Shown: positions 9,086 through 25,819 of the stretch, piece by piece | Position numbering within the stretch: position 1 is the first letter of the stretch | How the letters are laid out: every line of letters starts with the position of its first letter | Assembly (NCBI GenBank): GCA_964451785.1 | Contig: CAYVJG010000012.1 | Location: forward strand, 5,620-69,619 | Reading direction: 5' to 3' | From: an uncultured Flavobacteriaceae bacterium | GTDB lineage: Bacteria; Bacteroidota; Bacteroidia; Flavobacteriales; Flavobacteriaceae | Length of the DNA: 64,000 bases | The notes under the pieces: generated by a model | Told to the model about the DNA's origin: nothing | Database searches by the model: none | Seen by the model: only the letters and a program-made list of their open reading frames with translations | Translations under genes and position numbers: made by a program

Positions 9086-9913
9086 ATGACCTTAGACAAG
9101 CTGATTAGCGAGATAAAACGCAAGCAATCTTTTTTGTGTGTAGGCTTAGATGTCGACCTTGAAAAAATCCCTGCGTTTTTAAAATCAGAAGACGACCCCA
9201 TATTTGCTTTTAATAAGGCTATTATTGATCAAACTCATGACCTAGCCGTAGCCTATAAACCGAATATCGCTTTTTATGAAGCTTATGGTTTAAAAGGATG
9301 GGCCGCACTTCAAAAAACGATTGATTACCTCAATGCTAATCATCCTGAAATTTTGATTATAGCTGATGCAAAACGCGGTGATATTGGCAATACTGCCACC
9401 CGTTATGCAAAGGCATTTTTTGAAGAAATGCAGTGTGATGCCTTGACCATTGCACCTTATATGGGACGAGATTCAGTGGAGCCTTTCTTAGCGTTTGACA
9501 ATAAATTTGCCATTATGTTAGGATTAACTTCTAATCCGGGATCGGCAGATTATCAATTACAAAAAGTAGGCGATAAGTATTTGTTTGAAACGGTTTTAGA
9601 AAAAGCACTGACTTGGAAAAATAGTCAAAATTTGATATTTGTTGTGGGGGCTACCAAGCCTGAATATTTTCAAGCCATTCGCAAAATTGCCCCAGAACAT
9701 TTCTTGTTAGTTCCTGGAGTTGGCGCTCAAGGAGGTGATTTGCACAGTGTTTGTAAGCACGGTTTTGCTTCAAATTGTGGCTTGTTGGTCAATTCAACTC
9801 GCGGAATTATTTATGCTAGTCAAGCACAAGATTTTGCTGAGGCTGCTCGTGAAAAAGCTAAAGCCTTACAAGTGGATATGGCTCAAATTCTAAAAGAACG
9901 CGCTTTTATTTAA
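9086..9913 (+). CDS. pyrF: Orotidine 5'-phosphate decarboxylase (type 2)
   Basis: 275 aa with FLCVGLDV, DAKRGDIGNT and PGVGAQGG motifs. Confidence 0.92.
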   Translation: MTLDKLISEIKRKQSFLCVGLDVDLEKIPAFLKSEDDPIFAFNKAIIDQTHDLAVAYKPNIAFYEAYGLKGWAALQKTIDYLNANHPEILIIADAKRGDIGNTATRYAKAFFEEMQCDALTIAPYMGRDSVEPFLAFDNKFAIMLGLTSNPGSADYQLQKVGDKYLFETVLEKALTWKNSQNLIFVVGATKPEYFQAIRKIAPEHFLLVPGVGAQGGDLHSVCKHGFASNCGLLVNSTRGIIYASQAQDFAEAAREKAKALQVDMAQILKERAFI

Positions 9914-17398: not shown

Positions 17399-17842
17399 CT
17401 AAGCCTTCTCTTCAGCAACTGTTTCTTCAACAGCTTCTTCTTCAGTTTCTTCTGATTTAGTGAAAGACGTAATGCCGTTTTCAATTAATAAGTTGTACCA
17501 TTGGAACACTTTTTTGATATCGCTACCATATACGCGATCAGCATCGTATTCTGGAAGGATTTCTGAAAAATAGGCTTCTAGTTCAGCTTTAGAACTTTTG
17601 TGGCTGATAGATTTTTTACCCTCTTCCTTAGCGTAAATTTTTTCAAAAACTACAGGTAAAGGCATTTCGTCATCAACAGTATAAATAGCAATTTCACTGA
17701 GCATGCTCACATCGTGACGCAAGTTAACGGCTAATTTTTTGCCATTGATTAACGATTCAGCAACAAATCCTGCACGGGTTTGCGCTTTTAACTCATATAA
17801 ACCCGGTTTTCCGGAAATCGAAAGAATTTTTTCTAAGCTCAT
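17399..17842 (-). CDS. Conserved Bacteroidota protein (DUF5606-like)
   Basis: The ORF track gives 154 aa. The likely real start is MSLEKILSISGKPGLYEL (7 codons in). The C-terminal tail is acidic. The family name is recalled, not verified. Confidence 0.6.
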   Translation of the reverse strand: MSLEKILSISGKPGLYELKAQTRAGFVAESLINGKKLAVNLRHDVSMLSEIAIYTVDDEMPLPVVFEKIYAKEEGKKSISHKSSKAELEAYFSEILPEYDADRVYGSDIKKVFQWYNLLIENGITSFTKSEETEEEAVEETVAEEKA

Positions 17843-18485: not shown

Positions 18486-18683
18486 AATTTTCAATCTTGT
18501 GGATTGCAAATGTAAGAAATTGTCTATTTTTAGAATACATTTGCTACTGATTTATAGTTGTTTTATCAATAATGTCCAAAACGGTTTTCGAAAATCTCTG
18601 TAAAACACTTGTATATTTTGTTCTTGAACGATTTTAGTATTGAAAAGATTGTTTTTAAAAGTTTTACTTCTTTTGGCCTATCG

Positions 18684-18811
18684 AAAATTTATCGTAAAAT
18701 TTGAAGTGAAAATACCGTAAAATTTTAGGCTGTTCGAGCTGGATGTATTTTTTATATTGAGCTGAATTTCAGTAGCGAGTTCCTAAAATTTAGGTATTGA
18801 ACGATAAATTT
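18684..18811. repeat. ~128 bp imperfect palindromic element (R5) in the def-ruvX spacer
   Basis: Inverted pairs are aaatttatcgt/acgataaattt and aataccgtaaaattttagg/cctaaaatttaggtatt. It shares the ataccgta motif with family R3. Confidence 0.6.
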
Positions 18812-18906
18812 AGATAAAGTTTCGTCAGCCTAGATTTTTTTGGTTCGTTTTTTCATCAATGGAAAAAATGAACAACATAAGCATTTAAGACAGAATTGTT
18901 GTTTTA

Positions 18907-19311
18907 TCAATACAAGTAGCTTTGTAAGATGACAGTGGCACTAATCTCATCGATTAAAGCTTTGTTGCGACGCTTCTTTTTGCCCAATCCACTGTCTATC
19001 ATCGTCTGAAAAGCTATTTTAGAACTGTAGCGCTCATCGACACGCTTGTAAGGCATCTCAGGGAATTTAGCGGTAAAAACTTTTAAAAATTCTTGAATAT
19101 ACACCTCGCTTTGTGATGGGCTGCCGTCTTTTTGCTTAGGTTCACCAACTAATACAAGTTCAACCGACTCTTTAGCAAAGTAATCTGTTAAAAATGGAAT
19201 CAATTCTGGCGTGTGGACGGTGGTTAACCCCGATGCAATAATCTTCATCTCATCTGTAACCGCTATTCCACAGCGTTTCGTGCCGTAATCTATTGCTAAA
19301 ATCCTTGCCAT
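18907..19311 (-). CDS. ruvX: Holliday junction resolvase-like protein RuvX/YqgF
   Basis: MARILAIDYGTKRCGIAVTD is the typical YqgF N-terminus. The track ORF's 43-codon upstream extension runs into repeat R3 and is rejected. Confidence 0.88.
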   Translation of the reverse strand: MARILAIDYGTKRCGIAVTDEMKIIASGLTTVHTPELIPFLTDYFAKESVELVLVGEPKQKDGSPSQSEVYIQEFLKVFTAKFPEMPYKRVDERYSSKIAFQTMIDSGLGKKKRRNKALIDEISATVILQSYLY

Positions 19312-19408
19312 ATTTTTATTTTGCACAAAGATAAAGTTTATTCTTAAACTGCTTTTGATTTTTCTGTTTTGGTTTTGGAGAGTGAGCGTTTCAGTTGCCA
19401 TAAGGAGT

Positions 19409-19541
19409 CTAATACCGTATGGATAAATTAAATAGTCCAATTTCGACTTTGTCTCATTGTACTAGTAATTTATATACCACGATATTATACCTATAAAGAA
19501 TATTCTAAATCGGACTAAAAAAATAATTCTAACGGGTATAA
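19409..19541 (+). mobile_element. R3 MITE/REP-like element, copy 1 (133 bp)
   Basis: Begins ctaataccgtatgg and ends gggtataa. Nearly the same sequence occurs at 54455-54586, 25687-25819 (reverse) and 41667-41786. Confidence 0.8.
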
Positions 19542-19731
19542 TATTCTAGGGTAAAGAATAGGTGTAAGAATTATTTATGATAATATTCCCGTCCGTTTCC
19601 TGTGTTAAAAGTGGGGCTTTGGGTTAGAAAGGGAAAGCGACGGTGTTTCCAACGATTGCGATTTTTCTTTTCCCCAGCCCTAAAGGTTGTGAAAATCATG
19701 AAACTTTGTTTTTGCTGAAGGTTATTAGAAT

Positions 19732-19789
19732 AATTTTACATATCTTTAACAAACGCAAATCAACCGTGTTACTTTTAACAAAACCCTAA
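19732..19789 (+). repeat. Left 58 bp direct repeat bracketing the RHS island
   Basis: aattttacatatctttaacaaaCgcaaatcaaccgt..aacaaaaccctaa matches 23338-23395 with 5 mismatches. It is in frame with the downstream RHS ORF. Confidence 0.85.
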
Positions 19790-19818
19790 GGGGGAAACAC
19801 TATGACGAATTCAACCGC

Positions 19819-21711
19819 TTGCGCGAGGCCAATGGCTTTTACATCGCCCCTAATGACACCCCGCAGAATCAATTGCTGCGGCAGCAATACCGCACCAGTA
19901 TGAGCTATAATGACAATCAAGACATTAGCGTGAAATACCAAGACCACCACCAAGCCGTGGTGGGCAACTTGACGCCGCCTCAGTCGAGCGCGCTGCAGCA
20001 GGTTTTTCCGACAAGCTACATCTTGGTATATGACGATTATGCCACGGGCAGCTTTTCGGCGGGCAACTACACCTATGTGCAGCCACACGCCCCGCGCACC
20101 CTGGTGGTGAAACCAACTGTTCCTACGGCGAGCAACGACCCGCGCATTAGTCATAAAAAACTGCAGTATGACGCTAATGGAAATTTGACAAGCGTTTCTC
20201 AGAACATTACAACTCCCGGAGCGCCATTAGCCGACACGCAGCTGCTTTTGCGCCAGTATCGCTGGGACGAAGAAAACCGATTGCGCGCTGTTGACTTGCA
20301 GCCTGAAAACCCAACTAACCAGCCCAAAATTGCGGCTTACACTTATGATGCAAGCGGGCAACGCGTGGTGCGCTATGTGTCTGAACAGTTGAAAGCTTAT
20401 TTTAGTGGTCACCCCTCCGGGCGGGCACACCAACTGGAAATAGCGGTGTATCCCAGTGGTTTTATCTCGGCAAAAGCCTTGACTGAACGGGGGATACACA
20501 AGGAATTTATGACCTATACCAAGCATTTTTACATCGGCAGTCAACGCGTGGCTAGCGTGAAGGGCGGCAGCAATGGTGTGGGGCGGTATTTGAGCAACAG
20601 TAGCTTGGAAACGGCAAGCTCCTATTTTGGAATTTTGCAAGAAAAGCGACAGACCGCCACCCAAGCCTTAGCCGCCGATTATGCGGCTTTCAACAAAACC
20701 CTAACCCTGCCACAGCCGTTTGCGCTCTCGCCCATTACGTCAAGCTCCTACCGACAACAGCGCCACACCTACTGGTTTCACCCCGACCACCTCGGCAGCT
20801 CGAGTTATATTTCAAATATAAACGGGAGGATTTCACAGCATATAGAATACTTCCCTTTCGGCGAAACCTTGGTTGAAGAACACAAAAACTCCAATAACTC
20901 GCCTTATAAATTTAATGGCAAAATGCTAGACGCTGAAACCGGGAATTATTACTACGGCGCAAGATATTACAACCCTAAATGGAGCCTGTGGCTGAGCGTT
21001 GACCCGCTGGCGGAAAACTACCCCGGCTGGTCACCGTATAATTATACCTTGTATAATCCGGTGCGGTTTGTGGACCCGGATGGGCGGAGTGTGGCGATGC
21101 CGGACAACTGGTATAAGAACAAAGAAACAGGTGAAGTAATTTGGATTGATGGGGATAAGGATTATTACGGTTACGAAAACTTAGGATTTGATCATCATGA
21201 GGTTTTTCGTAAAAACCCTGATGATTTGTGGTTGACCCGTGTACAGTATGATGGAGATACAAAAACAAAATCGGTTAACCGTCAAGTGGTCAAACATTAT
21301 GAATCGAGTACAATGCGCAAAGGATACAATTTTGTAATGGACAACTTTGTCGGTTCTACGATGGCAGGGGTACAAGAATTGGGTTGGATAGTCGTTGGGA
21401 CAGGAATTGCCGTAAAAGCCCAGTTTAAAGAAGTGATGAATGGCGGCGATGGTTTGGGCATACACATTGATATGGCTATGCCCATTTATGTCATTCAAAA
21501 CGGGAAACTTATGAAAATGGATTTAGCTGAATATTCCTTTGGGGAATTAGTGAGTAATGGGTTTTCGGGACTGACTGCATTGGCTGGAGGGACAAGTACT
21601 GTGTTTAAAACAGGAATAAAAGAATGGTATGGTGAAGCTATTGATTATTTGGCAGATAAAACCTTAGGATATTATATTGGCGAAGGATTGGGAAAATTAA
21701 AGGGGAAGTAA
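19819..21711 (+). CDS. 5'-truncated RHS/YD-repeat core fragment with an unrecognised C-terminal toxin tip
   Basis: YD repeats are present (QYDANGNLTS, YTYDASGQRV). The RHS-associated core end is YYYGARYYNPKWSLWLSVDPL..YNPVRFVDPDGR at ~20950-21087. About 200 aa of lower-GC tip follow. The frame is open from 19750 and the track start is a TTG. No N-terminal RHS part lies upstream. Confidence 0.85.
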   Translation: MREANGFYIAPNDTPQNQLLRQQYRTSMSYNDNQDISVKYQDHHQAVVGNLTPPQSSALQQVFPTSYILVYDDYATGSFSAGNYTYVQPHAPRTLVVKPTVPTASNDPRISHKKLQYDANGNLTSVSQNITTPGAPLADTQLLLRQYRWDEENRLRAVDLQPENPTNQPKIAAYTYDASGQRVVRYVSEQLKAYFSGHPSGRAHQLEIAVYPSGFISAKALTERGIHKEFMTYTKHFYIGSQRVASVKGGSNGVGRYLSNSSLETASSYFGILQEKRQTATQALAADYAAFNKTLTLPQPFALSPITSSSYRQQRHTYWFHPDHLGSSSYISNINGRISQHIEYFPFGETLVEEHKNSNNSPYKFNGKMLDAETGNYYYGARYYNPKWSLWLSVDPLAENYPGWSPYNYTLYNPVRFVDPDGRSVAMPDNWYKNKETGEVIWIDGDKDYYGYENLGFDHHEVFRKNPDDLWLTRVQYDGDTKTKSVNRQVVKHYESSTMRKGYNFVMDNFVGSTMAGVQELGWIVVGTGIAVKAQFKEVMNGGDGLGIHIDMAMPIYVIQNGKLMKMDLAEYSFGELVSNGFSGLTALAGGTSTVFKTGIKEWYGEAIDYLADKTLGYYIGEGLGKLKGK

Positions 21712-21899
21712 TGGGATTACCTGGTTTAATAGGGATGTGTATCAGGTTTATATTTGTATTTCATTGCAGTTTCAAAAAGAAAAATGAGGCAACAAAAAAA
21801 GATATGGATGCAGAGAAAGCCAAGGATGGTCAGGTCGGATTAATTGGCTTAATTGTAATTATTATAGCAATGGGGGTTACTTATGAATTGATGCACTAA
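21711..21899 (+). CDS. 62 aa two-TM membrane protein, candidate cognate immunity protein
   Basis: Its ATG overlaps the toxin stop (gTAATGg). Hydrophobic segments are GLPGLIGMCIRFIFVF and VGLIGLIVIIIAMGV, joined by a charged loop. A paralogue sits at 22140-22331. Confidence 0.6.
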   Translation: MGLPGLIGMCIRFIFVFHCSFKKKNEATKKDMDAEKAKDGQVGLIGLIVIIIAMGVTYELMH

Positions 21900-21939
21900 G
21901 TAGTTAAGGTTATTTTACAGTATTCAAAACGGGAAACTA

Positions 21940-22140
21940 ATGAAAATGGATTTAGCCGAATATTCTTTTGGGGAGTTAGTGAGTAATGGGTTTTCTGGGA
22001 TAACAACTTTGGCCGGAGGTGTTGGTTCTGTACTGAAATCAGGAATTAAAGGAAAATTTGGAGATATATTAGATTTTTCATCTGAGAAAGTCACAGATTA
22101 TTATATTGGAGAGAGATTAAAGGAGTTAAAAGAGAGATAA
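21940..22140 (+). CDS. Orphan copy of the toxin C-terminal tail (last ~70 aa)
   Basis: The frame is open from 21904. IQNGKLMKMDLAEYSFGELVSNGFSG is identical to the main toxin at 21493 onward, then diverges. There is no RHS core upstream. Confidence 0.6.
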   Translation: MKMDLAEYSFGELVSNGFSGITTLAGGVGSVLKSGIKGKFGDILDFSSEKVTDYYIGERLKELKER

Positions 22141-22331
22141 TGGGGTTGCCAGGTTTAGTAGGAATAGTTATAAGATTTATTTTTGTATTTCGCTTTAGTC
22201 TAAAAAAGATGGACAAAGCATCGAGGGAAAATTCTGACAGCGAAAAACAAAAAGATGCACAAGTAGGTCTAATAACCATTTTCGTCTTTATAATCGGCGT
22301 GATAATTTGGGGTGCGATATGGTATCCTTGA
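22140..22331 (+). CDS. 63 aa two-TM membrane protein, second immunity paralogue
   Basis: It has the same TAATG overlap with the orphan tail. MGLPGLVGIVIRFIFVF..VGLITIFVFIIGVII parallels 21711-21899. Confidence 0.6.
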   Translation: MGLPGLVGIVIRFIFVFRFSLKKMDKASRENSDSEKQKDAQVGLITIFVFIIGVIIWGAIWYP

Positions 22332-22334
22332 TTA

Positions 22335-22757
22335 TTGTTTCACGGAATTTACATAGACGGAATAGGCAGCACTAATATGGGTGTTATAACAGGTTCAGGC
22401 GCGAGCTCTCGAATAGGCTACGACGAGCTGACAGGTTTTGGAAGCGAAGCCGGCAGTAGCCGATTGGGGAAACTACTTCAGTCGGTGGCGTTATTTTTTC
22501 AAGCGTTGATGCCGGGAGAGGATAACACAATGACCACTACCGTTGTGAAACCGGGGAGGACAAATCAGCTTCCGGCGGAAAAAAAGGTGAAAATGATAAA
22601 ATTTAAAGTGGTGGAAATTAACAATAAAACGTTTTACCCATCAGGTGCGTATGACTATAGAGAGTTCGATACACTAGTCCCTATAAATGGTGTCGAAAAT
22701 TTTAAAATAATGACAAGTAAGGATAGAGATTCAGTCTATAGATATCCGAAATATTAA
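22335..22757 (+). CDS. Hypothetical protein; possible further orphan toxin fragment
   Basis: The frame opens immediately after the stop of the preceding gene. The track start is TTG and the first ATG is at 22377. The 5' half is G+C-richer (Gly/Ser-rich) and the 3' half AT-rich. I recognise no motif. Confidence 0.4.
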   Translation: MFHGIYIDGIGSTNMGVITGSGASSRIGYDELTGFGSEAGSSRLGKLLQSVALFFQALMPGEDNTMTTTVVKPGRTNQLPAEKKVKMIKFKVVEINNKTFYPSGAYDYREFDTLVPINGVENFKIMTSKDRDSVYRYPKY

Positions 22758-22764
22758 TAACAAT

Positions 22765-23271
22765 ATGAAAAAAATATTAATAACAATCATATGCATAGGG
22801 GTATTGTTTTCTTGTAACAATACTAAGCACTCTTCTCATAATAAGGAAAATATAAAACCTTTAAAAGATACACTATGGCTTGAATTTACCCCTGAAAATA
22901 ATGATTCACTAAAGGTTGCTGTAAATTATTATTTTGGGATAGACACATTGGCTTCCCAAGAAGTTATGGATAGAGCTACTATTTTTTACTTTACTTTTAG
23001 AGAAATATCGATTGATGAATTAAAGAAAATTATTTTCTTAAAGTATAGTGAAAAACGGAGAAATGAAGTCAATGAAAATAAAATCAGCCAAATTCATATA
23101 CCTGTTAATAAGCAGTATAGTTTCTATGTGCAATTAGGAACTAAAAAAGTTCATCATTTAACAGGAATGGTTGTTGACAATTTTTTAATTAAAATTAAGG
23201 ACTCTATAAAAAGCGATACCGTAGTTGTAAGAAAAGTAGGAACGTCTATAGAACAGTACTTTAAGTTTTAA
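22765..23271 (+). CDS. Small lipoprotein; candidate immunity partner of 22335-22757
   Basis: 168 aa with leader ICIGVLFSC. It starts 8 nt after the preceding stop. It is AT-rich with no recognisable family. Confidence 0.45.
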   Translation: MKKILITIICIGVLFSCNNTKHSSHNKENIKPLKDTLWLEFTPENNDSLKVAVNYYFGIDTLASQEVMDRATIFYFTFREISIDELKKIIFLKYSEKRRNEVNENKISQIHIPVNKQYSFYVQLGTKKVHHLTGMVVDNFLIKIKDSIKSDTVVVRKVGTSIEQYFKF

Positions 23272-23337
23272 ATTGAGTTAAGTCAGTTCTAATAGCCTAT
23301 TGGCAGGTAAATCTTACACATAATTGCATAGCAAAAC

Positions 23338-23420
23338 AATTTTACATATCTTTAACAAATGCAAATCAACCGTCTCGCTTTCAACAAAACCCTAACCCTG
23401 CCACAGCCGTTTGCGCTCTC
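23338..23420 (+). repeat. Right 58 bp direct repeat plus an exact 44 bp copy of internal RHS sequence
   Basis: 23338-23395 matches 19732-19789. 23377-23420 is identical to 20686-20729 (gctttcaacaaaaccctaaccctgccacagccgtttgcgctctc). It contains an ATG at 23359 heading a 25-codon mini-ORF. Confidence 0.85.
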
Positions 23421-23500
23421 TTGCTTTCTTATATAAATCCTCTTTATAAAGGCTTGTAGTTTGGTGGAGTTCCTTATATTTATCGCAAATTTAGAAGGAC

Positions 23501-24319
23501 ATGGAAGAATTAAAAAATAAGATTTTAGCAGCTTGGGATAATCGAGAGCTCTTAAAAGAAGAAGCAACTAAAGCAGCCATTAAAGAAGTGGTTAACTTAT
23601 TAGATGCAGGTAAATTGCGCTGTGCTGAACCAGATGCTAATGGCGGATGGCAAGTTAACGAATGGGTTAAAAAAGGCGTTGTGTTGTATTTTCCTATTCA
23701 AGAAATGAAAACCCTCGAAGCTGGTATCTTTGAATATCACGACAAAATGCCACTAAAATCAGGCTATAAAGAAAAAGGCATTCGTGTGGTGCCTAACGCT
23801 GTAGCTCGCCATGGCGCTTATATTTCAAAAGGAGTCATCATGATGCCTAGTTATGTCAACATCGGCGCTTATGTTGATGAAGGTACTATGGTTGACACCT
23901 GGGCAACAGTGGGAAGTTGTGCTCAAATTGGCAAAAATGTGCACCTTTCGGGTGGCGTGGGCATTGGTGGCGTGCTCGAACCTCTACAAGCGGCTCCTGT
24001 GATTATTGAAGACAACGCATTTATCGGTTCGCGTTGTATTGTAGTTGAAGGGGCACGCGTTGAAAAAGAAGCAGTACTAGGGGCTAATGTGGTGTTGACG
24101 GGATCAACTAAAATTATCGATGTCACTGGCGATGAGCCTAAAATTATGAAAGGAGTAGTGCCAGCGCGTAGTGTGGTGATTCCTGGAAGCTATACCAAAT
24201 CTTTTCCGGCTGGTGATTTTCAAGTGCCTTGTGCCTTGATTATCGGAAAACGCAAGGAGAGTACTAATAAAAAAACATCGCTTAACGATGCACTTCGTGA
24301 ATACAATGTGTCTGCTTAA
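23501..24319 (+). CDS. dapD: 2,3,4,5-tetrahydropyridine-2,6-dicarboxylate N-succinyltransferase
   Basis: 272 aa with hexapeptide-repeat region (GAYVDEGTMVDTWATVGSCAQIGKNVHLSGGVGIGG) and a typical DapD N-terminus. Confidence 0.9.
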   Translation: MEELKNKILAAWDNRELLKEEATKAAIKEVVNLLDAGKLRCAEPDANGGWQVNEWVKKGVVLYFPIQEMKTLEAGIFEYHDKMPLKSGYKEKGIRVVPNAVARHGAYISKGVIMMPSYVNIGAYVDEGTMVDTWATVGSCAQIGKNVHLSGGVGIGGVLEPLQAAPVIIEDNAFIGSRCIVVEGARVEKEAVLGANVVLTGSTKIIDVTGDEPKIMKGVVPARSVVIPGSYTKSFPAGDFQVPCALIIGKRKESTNKKTSLNDALREYNVSA

Positions 24320-24361
24320 TACGGAAATGATTTTTGGTCTATTTTGAATGTCACTTCCGTA
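24320..24361. repeat. Minimal 42 bp R4 element (the two R4 termini joined head to head)
   Basis: tacggaaatgattttt-gg-tctattttgaatgtcacttccgta. It begins on the nucleotide after the dapD stop. Confidence 0.7.
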
Positions 24362-24433
24362 TAAGCTTTAATAAATAACTTTTTAAAGGACTTGCCTCTC
24401 TTTGCGACAAGTTCTTTTTTTAGCACTTTAATT

Positions 24434-24787
24434 ATGGAAAATACAGTTTTTTATTTGTCGTCATGTTCAACCTGTAAACGTATTTTAGACAGTGTAAATC
24501 TACCTGAAGATTTTGCGCAACAAGATATCAAAAATCAGCCGATGACCGCTGCTCAGCTCGATGAACTCAAAGCTTTGTCAGGAAGTTATGAAGCGCTGTT
24601 TAGTAAGCGTGCTCAGTTGTATCGCCAACGCAACTTAAAAGCGCAAAATTTGACAGAATCAGATTATAGAACTTTGCTTTTAGAGCACTATACATTTTTG
24701 AAACGACCGGTATTTGTTATCGATGGACAGGTTTACATAGGTAATTCTAAAAAGATTGTCGCTCAAGTGCAAGAAGCCTTGCACTAA
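24434..24787 (+). CDS. ArsC/Spx-family (arsenate reductase-like) protein
   Basis: MENTVFYLSSCSTCKRIL has the N-terminal Cys motif. The start is set at the ATG at 24434 rather than the upstream TTG of the track ORF. Confidence 0.75.
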   Translation: MENTVFYLSSCSTCKRILDSVNLPEDFAQQDIKNQPMTAAQLDELKALSGSYEALFSKRAQLYRQRNLKAQNLTESDYRTLLLEHYTFLKRPVFVIDGQVYIGNSKKIVAQVQEALH

Positions 24788-25675: not shown

Positions 25676-25686
25676 GAGTTAAGATG

Positions 25687-25819
25687 TTATACCAATTAGA
25701 ATTATTTTTTAGTCCGATTTATAATATCTTTTGTAGGTATAATACCGTGGGCCATAAATTAACGAGTACGATGAGATAAAGTCGAAATTGGACTAGTTAA
25801 TTTATCCATACGGTATTAG
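25687..25819 (-). mobile_element. R3 MITE/REP-like element, copy 3 (reverse orientation)
   Basis: It is the reverse complement of the 19409-19541 family. Its ggtataa end lies 11 nt upstream of the M48 start codon. Confidence 0.8.

What the first reader, a model, noticed from the sequence alone, without database searches (positions are those of the whole stretch)
23338..23420. 58 bp direct repeats bracket the island, each fused in frame to RHS sequence at a different point
19732-19789 and 23338-23395 are the same 58 bp with 5 mismatches. The repeat carries a near-consensus Bacteroidota -7 box (tatcttta versus TAnnTTTG), then an in-frame stop. In the right copy an ATG follows (23359); the left copy has ACG at that position.

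Both copies run in frame into RHS coding sequence. The left copy joins at 19790 and continues for 640 codons. The right copy joins a 44 bp segment identical to internal RHS positions 20686-20729, then stops after 4 more codons.

The shared aacaaaaccctaa (FNKTL) is present at both junctions and also inside the RHS gene. This looks like a footprint of repeated recombination: a promoter plus start 'head' captured different RHS 3' portions, and the right-hand copy then suffered a deletion. It could be how otherwise start-less orphan tips become expressed.
Basis: seen in the sequence. Interest (0 to 1): 0.6.

Follow-up and report, generated by a model that had tools for sequence, protein, structure and literature searches.

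The report
Duplicated junction scar in orphan RHS island
The two 58-base repeats are real and are copies of one old joint between a short non-coding "head" and a cut-down RHS toxin gene, an ordinary recombination scar of such toxin/immunity islands and not a proven portable promoter-plus-start module.

Summary
19732-19789 and 23338-23395 match at 53/58, and 20686-20729 equals 23377-23420 at 44/44. Independent Logan contigs reproduce both junctions.

The repeats flank a roughly 4 kb insertion into the ruvX<>dapD spacer, which is uninterrupted in 8/8 relatives. The insert holds the only RHS sequence in this assembly: a 5'-truncated fragment with a toxin tip and three immunity-type ORFs.

Both repeat copies share the same head-to-RHS joint, at RHS position about 20683-20686. 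This points to one fusion that was later duplicated, not two independent captures. The left copy carries a second, RHS-to-RHS joint at 19789|19790. The right copy is a stump cut off 44 nt into RHS.

The head occurs only at this locus. Its ATG is a strain-specific T/C polymorphism; a co-occurring strain has ACG. The ATG lies 4 nt after the -7-like box, whereas this genome's boxes lie 15-29 nt before starts.

An unrelated flavobacterial-type array shows the same layout: a head plus RHS joint before two cassettes and as a terminal stump. I rate this an ordinary member of orphan rhs arrays, of modest interest.

The parts
18907..19305 (-). ruvX, the native left flank. The true start is near 19305, and its -7 box (CAAAGATA on the + strand) lies about 14 nt upstream of the start.
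   Evidence: Pfam RuvX E=1.4e-30, starting at residue 46 of the long ORF. Orthologues lie next to dapD in 8/8 relatives.
19409..19544 (.). A copy of a ~135-nt dispersed, MITE-like intergenic repeat. It is not part of the direct repeat.
   Evidence: blastn against the whole assembly finds more than 130 copies at 75-95% identity. An inverted copy lies at 25684-25819.
19545..19731 (.). Unique spacer upstream of the left head. It has no counterpart elsewhere in the genome or in the relatives' spacers.
   Evidence: No Rfam match.
19732..19767 (+). Left head: 36 nt of non-RHS sequence with the -7-like box TATCTTTA at 19741-19748, an in-frame TAA at 19747-49 and ACG at 19753-55.
   Evidence: It differs from the right head only at 19754, which is the strain-polymorphic site.
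19768..19789 (+). Left F segment: 22 nt derived from RHS, encoding V-T-F-N-K-T-L. It matches internal 20683-20704 at 18/22. It ends at the RHS-to-RHS joint 19789|19790.
   Evidence: plus direct reading.
19790..21711 (+). 5'-truncated RHS fragment: YD-repeat shell remnant, core end (..YNPVRFVDPDGR) and a C-terminal toxin tip. It is the only RHS sequence in the assembly.
   Evidence: Thousands of RHS homologues, best outside this genome E about 1e-117. Homology to longer RHS proteins starts at window 19798-19801, for example at residue 468 of P0019. There is no second locus. GC rises from about 37% to about 52-55% at 19790.
20686..20729 (+). Internal RHS source of the 44-nt repeat, encoding A-F-N-K-T-L-T-L-P-Q-P-F-A-L-S. 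This is a native, conserved RHS motif.
   Evidence: 44/44 identity with 23377-23420. Homologues carry Y-x-x-F-x-K-x-L-x-L-P-x-P-F/Y at this position.
21711..23271 (+). Three immunity-type ORFs (21711-21899, 22140-22331, 22765-23271) and two start-less orphan toxin fragments (about 21922-22140 and 22335-22757).
   Evidence: ORF list. The toxin-tail/immunity duplication 21493-21780 vs 21922-22209 is 74% identical. No Pfam hits.
23338..23373 (+). Right head: 36 nt with the box TATCTTTA at 23347-23354, TAA at 23353-55 and ATG at 23359. The T at 23360 is C in a co-occurring strain.
23374..23420 (+). Right joint (3 nt, ctc) followed by a 44-nt RHS stump identical to 20686-20729. The island ends at 23420|23421.
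23421..23500 (+). Native dapD upstream region with its own -7 box TATATTTA at 23475-23482, 18 nt before ATG 23501.
   Evidence: It is orthologous to the dapD promoters of relatives, which show box, then 16-21 nt, then the start codon. The geometry fits the genome-wide peak.
23501..24319 (+). dapD, the native right flank.
   Evidence: 75-87% amino-acid identity to the 15 closest relatives (59-71% in four more distant ones, and a 79% partial match). Pfam THDPS_N_2/Hexapep on the identical Logan product.

Best explanation
The 58-61 nt repeat is a duplicated junction scar inside a stand-alone orphan rhs toxin/immunity island. The island was inserted into the normally short divergent ruvX<>dapD promoter spacer.

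**Structure.** Each copy consists of about 36 nt of non-RHS DNA (the head) welded to the same point of an RHS core, at about 20683-20686, the A-F-N-K-T-L codons. Both copies therefore descend from a single earlier 5'-truncated orphan of the form head-AFNKTLTLPQPF...toxin.
- The right copy is the stump of such an orphan. It keeps 44 nt of RHS, identical to the resident fragment, and is cut off by the island's right boundary.
- The left copy keeps the head plus a diverged 22-nt version of the same RHS stretch. A second, illegitimate but in-frame RHS-to-RHS joint at 19789|19790 then attaches it to a longer RHS piece that begins 305 codons further 5'.

**Mechanism (inferred).** Such layouts arise when cassettes are added to or lost from rhs arrays. 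The likely routes are homologous or homology-facilitated illegitimate recombination, in the repeated head/RHS 5' region, between diverged alleles, sister chromosomes or excised circles.

**Function.** The repeat is a by-product of that traffic, not a mobile promoter cassette. The head may still carry a promoter that reads into the island, most usefully for the immunity genes. That is unproven, and the ATG in the right copy is a recent strain-specific mutation.

**Shown versus inferred.** Shown: the anatomy, the uniqueness of the head, the insertion into a conserved site, the absence of any other RHS, the strain polymorphism, and the analogous array. Inferred: the order and mechanism of the events.
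For: 1. **Shared joint.** After discounting the strain SNP, the heads are identical at 36/36. The copies continue through the joint into the same RHS-derived stretch: 13/13 identical, plus cttt. The right copy is 44/44 identical to 20686-20729 and the left is 18/22 to 20683-20704.
2. **Native RHS motif.** The internal AAFNKTLTLPQPF is a conserved RHS motif. RHS homology in the left copy restarts only at KHYDEFNRL, window 19796-19801. So 19789|19790 is an RHS-to-RHS joint.
3. **Insertion into a conserved site.** ruvX and dapD are adjacent and divergent in 8/8 relatives, with spacers of 92-745 nt. Both native -7 boxes survive outside the island.
4. **No main gene.** There is no other RHS sequence in the 99.8%-complete assembly.
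5. **Head restricted to this locus**.
6. **ATG not conserved.** It is polymorphic (T/C) among co-occurring strains. The box-to-ATG gap is 4 nt against the genomic mode of 15-29 nt.
7. **Analogue.** In a classical array (L051: a 3434-aa RHS plus six orphans), a ~215-nt non-RHS head plus RHS joint occurs three times. It stands before orphan 1, before orphan 4, and as a truncated stump at the distal end of the array. Its ATGs are also mutated to ACG/ATA in some copies.
8. **Commonness.** Idiosyncratic 5' truncations of RHS fragments are common in Flavobacteriia.
Against: - The exact order of events cannot be reconstructed. The closest RHS relative is only 46% identical in protein, and no strain lacking the island or carrying an intermediate was found.
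- Four of the five left/right differences cluster within 9 nt at the joint. The 3 nt ctc in the right copy matches neither the left copy nor the internal RHS. The joint may therefore have been remodelled, or even formed twice at almost the same point.
- The 44/44 identity of the stump contrasts with the diverged left F segment. Explaining it requires either allelic recombination or gene conversion.
- The head does carry a 7/8 match to the Bacteroidota -7 box, and both copies stay in frame with RHS. This could reflect selection for expression.
Confidence: 0.6

Rival explanations
1. First reader's model. The head is a portable promoter-plus-start module that independently captured different RHS 3' portions. 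This would give otherwise start-less orphan tips their own expression.
For: - The head has a -7-like box TATCTTTA, an in-frame stop and then ATG in the right copy, and both copies are in frame with RHS.
- The right copy has a TTG 20 nt upstream of the box (printout).
- In the L051 array, the head before orphan 4 has TAnnTTTA, then 17 nt, then ATG. That is a canonical geometry.
- Internal promoters that drive orphan Rhs toxins are documented in Salmonella (PMC7043789).
Against: - Both copies share one head-to-RHS joint. The second joint is RHS-to-RHS.
- The head is found nowhere else.
- The ATG is a strain-specific SNP, and the left copy and the variant right copy have ACG.
- The ATG lies 4 nt after the box, where starts are not enriched in this genome.
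- No start codon lies 15-29 nt downstream in the RHS frame.
- TAnnTTTA is frequent in upstream regions, about once per 370 nt.
- The repeat begins only 9-12 nt upstream of the box, so no -33 element travels with it.
Confidence: 0.12
2. Functional landing-pad or switch model. The head/RHS stump and the perfect 44-nt repeat are maintained substrates for recombinase-free, RecA-dependent cassette cycling.
- Recombination between the 44-nt repeats would excise or duplicate the 2691-bp unit 20686-23376.
- In a duplication or a circle, the right head's ATG would read in frame into a 347-aa self-starting orphan (MQINRL-AFNKTL...toxin).
- Recombination between the two heads would leave a solo head that could accept new cassettes.
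For: - The 44/44 identity stands out against the diverged left F segment.
- The predicted fusion ORF is open, at 347 aa.
- The Logan unitig L045 is bounded by the repeat at both ends. This is compatible with the linear layout, a circle or tandem copies.
- The L051 array shows the same head-plus-stump layout.
- Duplication followed by recombination activates an orphan Rhs in Salmonella (PMC3967940).
Against: - 36-44 nt of homology is near the lower limit for efficient RecA recombination.
- The ATG is absent in the variant strain.
- No full-length RHS is present to deliver the product. No TssC was detected either, though that search is weak evidence.
Confidence: 0.15
3. The repeats are attL/attR sites or a target-site duplication of a self-mobile or site-specifically integrated element.
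For: Direct repeats bracket a compositionally foreign insert in a conserved intergenic site.
Against: - The island contains no integrase, transposase or relaxase ORF. Its ORFs are RHS or toxin fragments and small immunity-type genes.
- A third of the repeat is RHS coding sequence.
- The copies differ at 5 of 58 positions.
- 58 nt is far longer than any target-site duplication.
- The true boundaries of the insertion lie outside the repeat, at about 19409 and about 23421-23468.
Confidence: 0.03
4. Assembly artefact: a chimeric join of metagenomic reads at short repeats.
For: The genome is an 83-contig draft. The repeats coincide with unitig breaks.
Against: Independent Logan assemblies from several runs reproduce the left junction (L048, 5 samples), the right head (L045, L046) and the stump-dapD junction (L041-L044) at 100% identity.
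Confidence: 0.03

Closest known systems
Orphan rhs-CT/rhsI arrays formed by C-terminal displacement in Enterobacteria (Poole et al. 2011, PMC3150448; Koskiniemi et al. 2014, PMC3967940)
   Same: - 5'-truncated rhs fragments, each followed by a small immunity gene.
- Orphans keep a piece of core sequence homologous to another rhs copy, which is the substrate for recombination.
- The island is compositionally foreign.
   Different: - No full-length main rhs is present anywhere in the genome.
- The homology is tiny: 44 nt, against 522 bp at 95% in Salmonella.
- The repeated unit includes a non-RHS head, and its distal copy is a 5' stump without a toxin.
- The host is a flavobacterium.
Internal promoters driving main and orphan Rhs toxins as TA-like modules in Salmonella Typhimurium (Starsta et al. 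2020, PMC7043789)
   Same: The idea that orphan toxin/immunity pairs are transcribed from their own promoters independently of a delivery gene. Non-canonical or weak starts are also involved.
   Different: In Salmonella the promoters lie inside the RHS coding sequence and were mapped by 5'RACE and reporters. Here the candidate box lies in non-RHS DNA, is a sigma-A(Bacteroidota)-type -7 motif, and is untested.
Flavobacterial-type rhs array L051 (JGI metagenome 3300061914): a 3434-aa RHS plus six orphans
   Same: A non-RHS head welded to one RHS point recurs in front of cassettes and as a truncated stump at the distal end of the array. The ATG codons in the head vary (ATG, ACG or ATA) between copies.
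   Different: - That head is about 215 nt and starts with a terminator-like hairpin.
- Its RHS stump is about 205 nt.
- A full-length main gene is present.
- There is no sequence similarity to the head studied here.

Membership tests
Orphan rhs-CT / immunity array | RHS/YD-repeat core that ends in the conserved core motif and is followed by a variable C-terminal tip | tested here: met
   5,803 RHS homologues in all; the best one outside this genome has E 9.5e-118. The core end ..YNPVRFVDPDGR is visible in the translation. Pfam RHS_repeat gives only a sub-threshold hit, E=0.0013.
Orphan rhs-CT / immunity array | 5' truncation: no N-terminal delivery region and no native start | tested here: met
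   Homology to longer RHS proteins begins at window 19798-19801, equal to residue 155-468 of the homologues. The in-frame stop is at 19747 and there is no ATG before 19900.
Orphan rhs-CT / immunity array | A small immunity gene directly downstream of each tip | tested here: inconclusive
   The arrangement fits: ORFs at 21711-21899, 22140-22331 and 22765-23271. There is no family match, and protection was not testable.
Orphan rhs-CT / immunity array | Located downstream of a full-length main rhs gene | tested here: not met
   tblastn with the fragment and with 11 longer homologues finds only this locus in the assembly. It is therefore a stand-alone array. Similar cases are seen in other Flavobacteriia.
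Orphan rhs-CT / immunity array | Shared core sequence between array members that allows homologous recombination | tested here: met
   A 44/44 repeat (20686-20729 = 23377-23420) and a toxin-tail repeat at 74-95% identity.
Bacteroidota primary-sigma promoter (-33 TTG / -7 TAnnTTTG) | -7 box TAnnTTTG | tested here: inconclusive
   TATCTTTA is a 7/8 match, with A in place of G. In this genome the TAnnTTTA variant shows only weak positional enrichment, and it occurs about once per 370 nt upstream of genes.
Bacteroidota primary-sigma promoter (-33 TTG / -7 TAnnTTTG) | Start codon 15-29 nt downstream of the box (this genome's own distribution) | tested here: not met
   ATG 23359 begins 4 nt after the box. 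No in-frame ATG, GTG or TTG lies in the 15-29 nt window of either copy.
Bacteroidota primary-sigma promoter (-33 TTG / -7 TAnnTTTG) | Transcription initiates downstream of the box | not testable with these tools
Site-specific integrative element (att repeats) | An integrase or recombinase gene within or beside the bracketed segment | tested here: not met
   All ORFs of 19790-23271 are accounted for as RHS or toxin fragments and small immunity-type ORFs, with no recombinase domain.

The most novel reading that the evidence does not exclude
Head-plus-RHS stumps are not mere debris. They would be the recombinase-free attachment points of flavobacterial rhs cassette arrays.
- Cassettes would leave as circles or duplicate by RecA recombination between short perfect repeats (here 44 nt and 36 nt).
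- They would re-enter at a solo head.
- In the duplicated or circular form, the head would supply a promoter and start, so that a previously silent orphan (here a 347-aa MQINRL-AFNKTL...toxin) becomes self-expressed.
Probability: 0.12. Interest if true: 0.55.

Novelty: new member of a known kind. Interest (0 to 1): 0.3.

Why it matters
This locus documents, at base resolution, how an rhs orphan island without any main gene is organised in a flavobacterium. It also shows that junction duplicates (head plus RHS stump) recur in unrelated arrays.

If the heads proved to be active promoters or recombination pads, that would explain two things. It would explain how start-less toxin/immunity cassettes stay expressed, at least their immunity genes. 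It would also explain how they are exchanged without dedicated recombinases.

As it stands, the feature is an ordinary recombination scar. Its main value is as a caution. An in-frame ATG and a -7-like box in such a scar can be a recent SNP and a common AT-rich motif.

Tried and rejected
- **Head in public collections.** An exact 26-mer with one degenerate base found nothing in genome contigs or metagenome contigs.
- **DNA-level relatives.** No relative within the genus matches the junction; only dapD coding sequence matches.
- **Closer RHS relatives, to recover the sequence 5' of 19790.** The best protein is 46% identical, and the search for related loci gave one 40% hit. The missing part cannot be inferred.
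- **Origin of the head in the native spacer.** The head, the upstream spacer (19545-19728) and the pre-head spacer (23272-23334) have no homology to the ruvX-dapD spacers of 8 relatives. Only the 10-nt promoter-like TATCTTTAAC is shared with one dapD promoter. The window's own dapD promoter persists at 23475. A duplicated native promoter is therefore rejected.
- **Rfam.** Nothing relevant in 18500-24500.
- **-33 element.** It is poorly conserved in this genome, so it is not informative.
- **T6SS sheath (PF05943).** The search was negative. The same tool also missed the window's own RHS with PF25023, so I treat this negative as weak.
- **A weak resemblance set aside.** The 9-mer aaggttatt occurs upstream of both the left head and orphan 2. 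I judged it a chance match.

Full report
**1. Observation**

The repeat is real. 19732-19789 and 23338-23395 match at 53/58. With three more bases on the left the match is 55/61, or 90%. The 34-nt head is expected 0 times by chance in the window and occurs twice. It occurs exactly twice in the 2.87 Mb assembly. 20686-20729 is identical to 23377-23420 at 44/44.

- In the left copy, TAA (19747-49) is followed by Q-T(ACG)-Q-I-N-R-V-T-F-N-K-T-L and then 640 RHS codons.
- In the right copy, TAA (23353-55) is followed by ATG 23359, giving MQINRLAFNKTLTLPQPFALS-CFLI-stop.

The structure is not an assembly artefact. Independent Logan contigs from several runs of one study reproduce the left junction (L048, 19445-20715, seen in 5 samples). 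They also reproduce the right head (L045, 20686-23406) and the stump-dapD junction (L041-L044). All match at 100% identity and break only at the 44-nt repeat, as k=31 unitigs must.

**2. Context**

The island lies between ruvX (minus strand) and dapD (plus strand). In 8/8 relatives examined (two species of the same genus and six other genera of the family), ruvX and dapD are adjacent and divergent. Their spacers are 92-745 nt long.

Both native -7 boxes survive outside the island.
- For ruvX it is CAAAGATA on the plus strand, about 14 nt from the start.
- For dapD it is TATATTTA at 23475-82, 18 nt before ATG 23501, and it is clearly orthologous to the relatives' dapD promoters.

Everything from about 19409 to about 23468 is therefore inserted. 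The insert consists of:
- a copy of a ~135-nt dispersed repeat with more than 130 genomic copies;
- about 185 nt of unique spacer;
- the left repeat;
- a 5'-truncated RHS fragment with a toxin tip;
- three immunity-type ORFs and two start-less toxin fragments;
- a 63-nt spacer and the right repeat.

GC jumps from about 37% to 52-55% exactly at 19790. The fragment is the only RHS sequence in the 99.8%-complete assembly. Eleven longer homologues all hit only this locus, and their matches start at window 19798-19801, for example at residue 468 of P0019.

**3. Anatomy of the repeat**

The repeat has two parts.

The first 36 nt (19732-19767 and 23338-23373) are non-RHS. The two copies differ at one base only, 19754 C against 23360 T.

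The rest is RHS-derived. In the right copy, 3 nt (ctc) are followed by 44 nt identical to 20686-20729. In the left copy, 22 nt (19768-19789) match 20683-20704 at 18/22, and there the similarity ends.

The internal stretch encodes AAFNKTLTLPQPF. This is a motif conserved at that position in RHS homologues (Y-x-x-F-x-K-x-L-x-L-P-x-P-F/Y), so it is native RHS. In the left copy, homology to RHS proteins resumes only at KHYDEFNRL.

It follows that both copies share one head-to-RHS joint. The joint that differs between them, 19789|19790, connects RHS codons FNKTL to RHS sequence that normally lies 305 codons upstream. It is an illegitimate, in-frame RHS-to-RHS joint.

This contradicts the idea that the head captured RHS independently at two points. 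It supports one fusion that was later duplicated and rearranged.

The four remaining left/right differences cluster within 9 nt at the joint (19768, 19770, 19771, 19776). The stump is 44/44 identical to the resident fragment. This pattern suggests recombination between diverged alleles, or conversion at this site, more than uniform decay.

**4. Is the head a promoter-plus-start module?**

The head is not found anywhere else. This holds for the own genome, for 185,579 species representatives and for JGI metagenome contigs.

A co-occurring strain (L047, 8 SNPs in 942 nt) carries C at 23360. Its right head therefore reads ACG, like the left head. The ATG is a recent, strain-specific mutation.

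In this genome TAnnTTTG boxes peak 15-29 nt before the ATG of long ORFs: 226 of 559 occurrences fall in that range. There is no enrichment at 0-4 nt. The TAnnTTTA variant shows only a weak peak and occurs about once per 370 nt of upstream sequence.

The head's ATG begins 4 nt after its box. No in-frame start lies 15-29 nt downstream in either copy. The repeat also starts only 9-12 nt upstream of the box, so no -33 region travels with it. The -33 region is in any case poorly conserved here.

Promoter activity remains possible, but the sequence evidence is weak.

**5. Comparative evidence**

5'-truncated RHS fragments with idiosyncratic N-termini are very common among flavobacterial homologues. 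Stand-alone arrays next to housekeeping genes also occur (L049).

The most instructive case is L051, a classical array with a 3434-aa RHS and six orphans. There a ~215-nt non-RHS head welded to one RHS point occurs three times. It stands before orphan 1, before orphan 4, and as a truncated stump (head plus about 205 nt of RHS) at the distal end of the array. Its start codons vary between ATG, ACG and ATA among the copies.

The window shows a miniature of the same layout. This supports a general process in which head/RHS 5' units are duplicated as cassettes are inserted or lost by recombination. Possible routes are a homologous single crossover of circles, unequal exchange, and homology-facilitated illegitimate recombination.

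The literature on Enterobacteria documents recombination between an orphan and the main rhs through shared core sequence after duplication (PMC3967940). It also documents internal promoters for orphan toxins (PMC7043789).

**6. Most likely history (inferred)**

An older orphan of the form head-AFNKTLTLPQPF...toxin existed. Array dynamics produced two head-bearing units. One was then joined, through its FNKTL codons, to a longer RHS piece, giving the left copy. The other was reduced to the 44-nt stump at the island boundary, giving the right copy.

Several orders of events are equally parsimonious. None can be chosen without closer relatives, and the best RHS relative is only 46% identical.

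**7. Less ordinary possibility**

The perfect 44-nt repeats lie 2691 bp apart. They could mediate deletion, or duplication or circle formation, of 20686-23376. In the duplicated or circular form, the right head's ATG reads in frame into a 347-aa orphan. Unitig L045 is bounded by the repeat at both ends, which is compatible with this but equally with the linear layout.

I give this about 0.12-0.15. The homology is short. The ATG is not conserved. There is no delivery-competent RHS. A T6SS sheath gene was not detected, though that negative is weak.

**8. Verdict**

The feature is an ordinary junction scar of an orphan rhs array, a new member of a known kind, and of modest interest.

Noticed in passing
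window 19409-19544 (also 25684-25819, inverted): A ~135-nt dispersed intergenic repeat with more than 130 copies at 75-95% identity across the assembly. One copy sits at the left edge of the island and an inverted copy lies 6.1 kb away, beyond dapD.
   Followed up: partly
window 19802-19903: The first ATG downstream of the left head is out of frame. It opens a 33-codon uORF whose stop overlaps the first in-frame ATG of the RHS fragment (19900) as ATGA. This could give translational coupling, or it could be chance.
   Followed up: partly
window 22430-22555 (orphan 3, 5' part) vs L047: The co-occurring strain has 6 SNPs within 126 nt here, 4 of them at third codon positions. There are none in the following ~780 nt. 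This suggests a recombination patch or a hypervariable stretch in a coding region that is still under constraint.
   Followed up: partly
L052:1-531 vs L051:1-531: Two samples carry the same six-orphan array at 99.98% identity from position 532 on. In one of them the 3434-aa main RHS is interrupted about 530 nt before its 3' end, and RHS N-terminal-type sequence is encoded on the opposite strand. The likely cause is an inversion or rearrangement that orphans the whole array.
   Followed up: partly
homologues P0024, P0028, P0031: Some flavobacterial RHS fragments begin with MQNYRKTSHTTYDCKYHIVWITK.., which looks like the N-terminus of an IS200/IS605-type transposase fused to RHS at the same point as an alternative head (MCKITEKHH..). 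This hints that IS insertion is one source of 5' truncations.
   Followed up: no
L051:1600-1640, 9830-9860, 17800-17840: Each copy of the ~215-nt head in that array starts with a GC-rich hairpin followed by a T-run (AAACCACCTTCGGGTGGTTTTT), i.e. a terminator-like element. It precedes a TAnnTTT(A/T) box and the start.
   Followed up: partly
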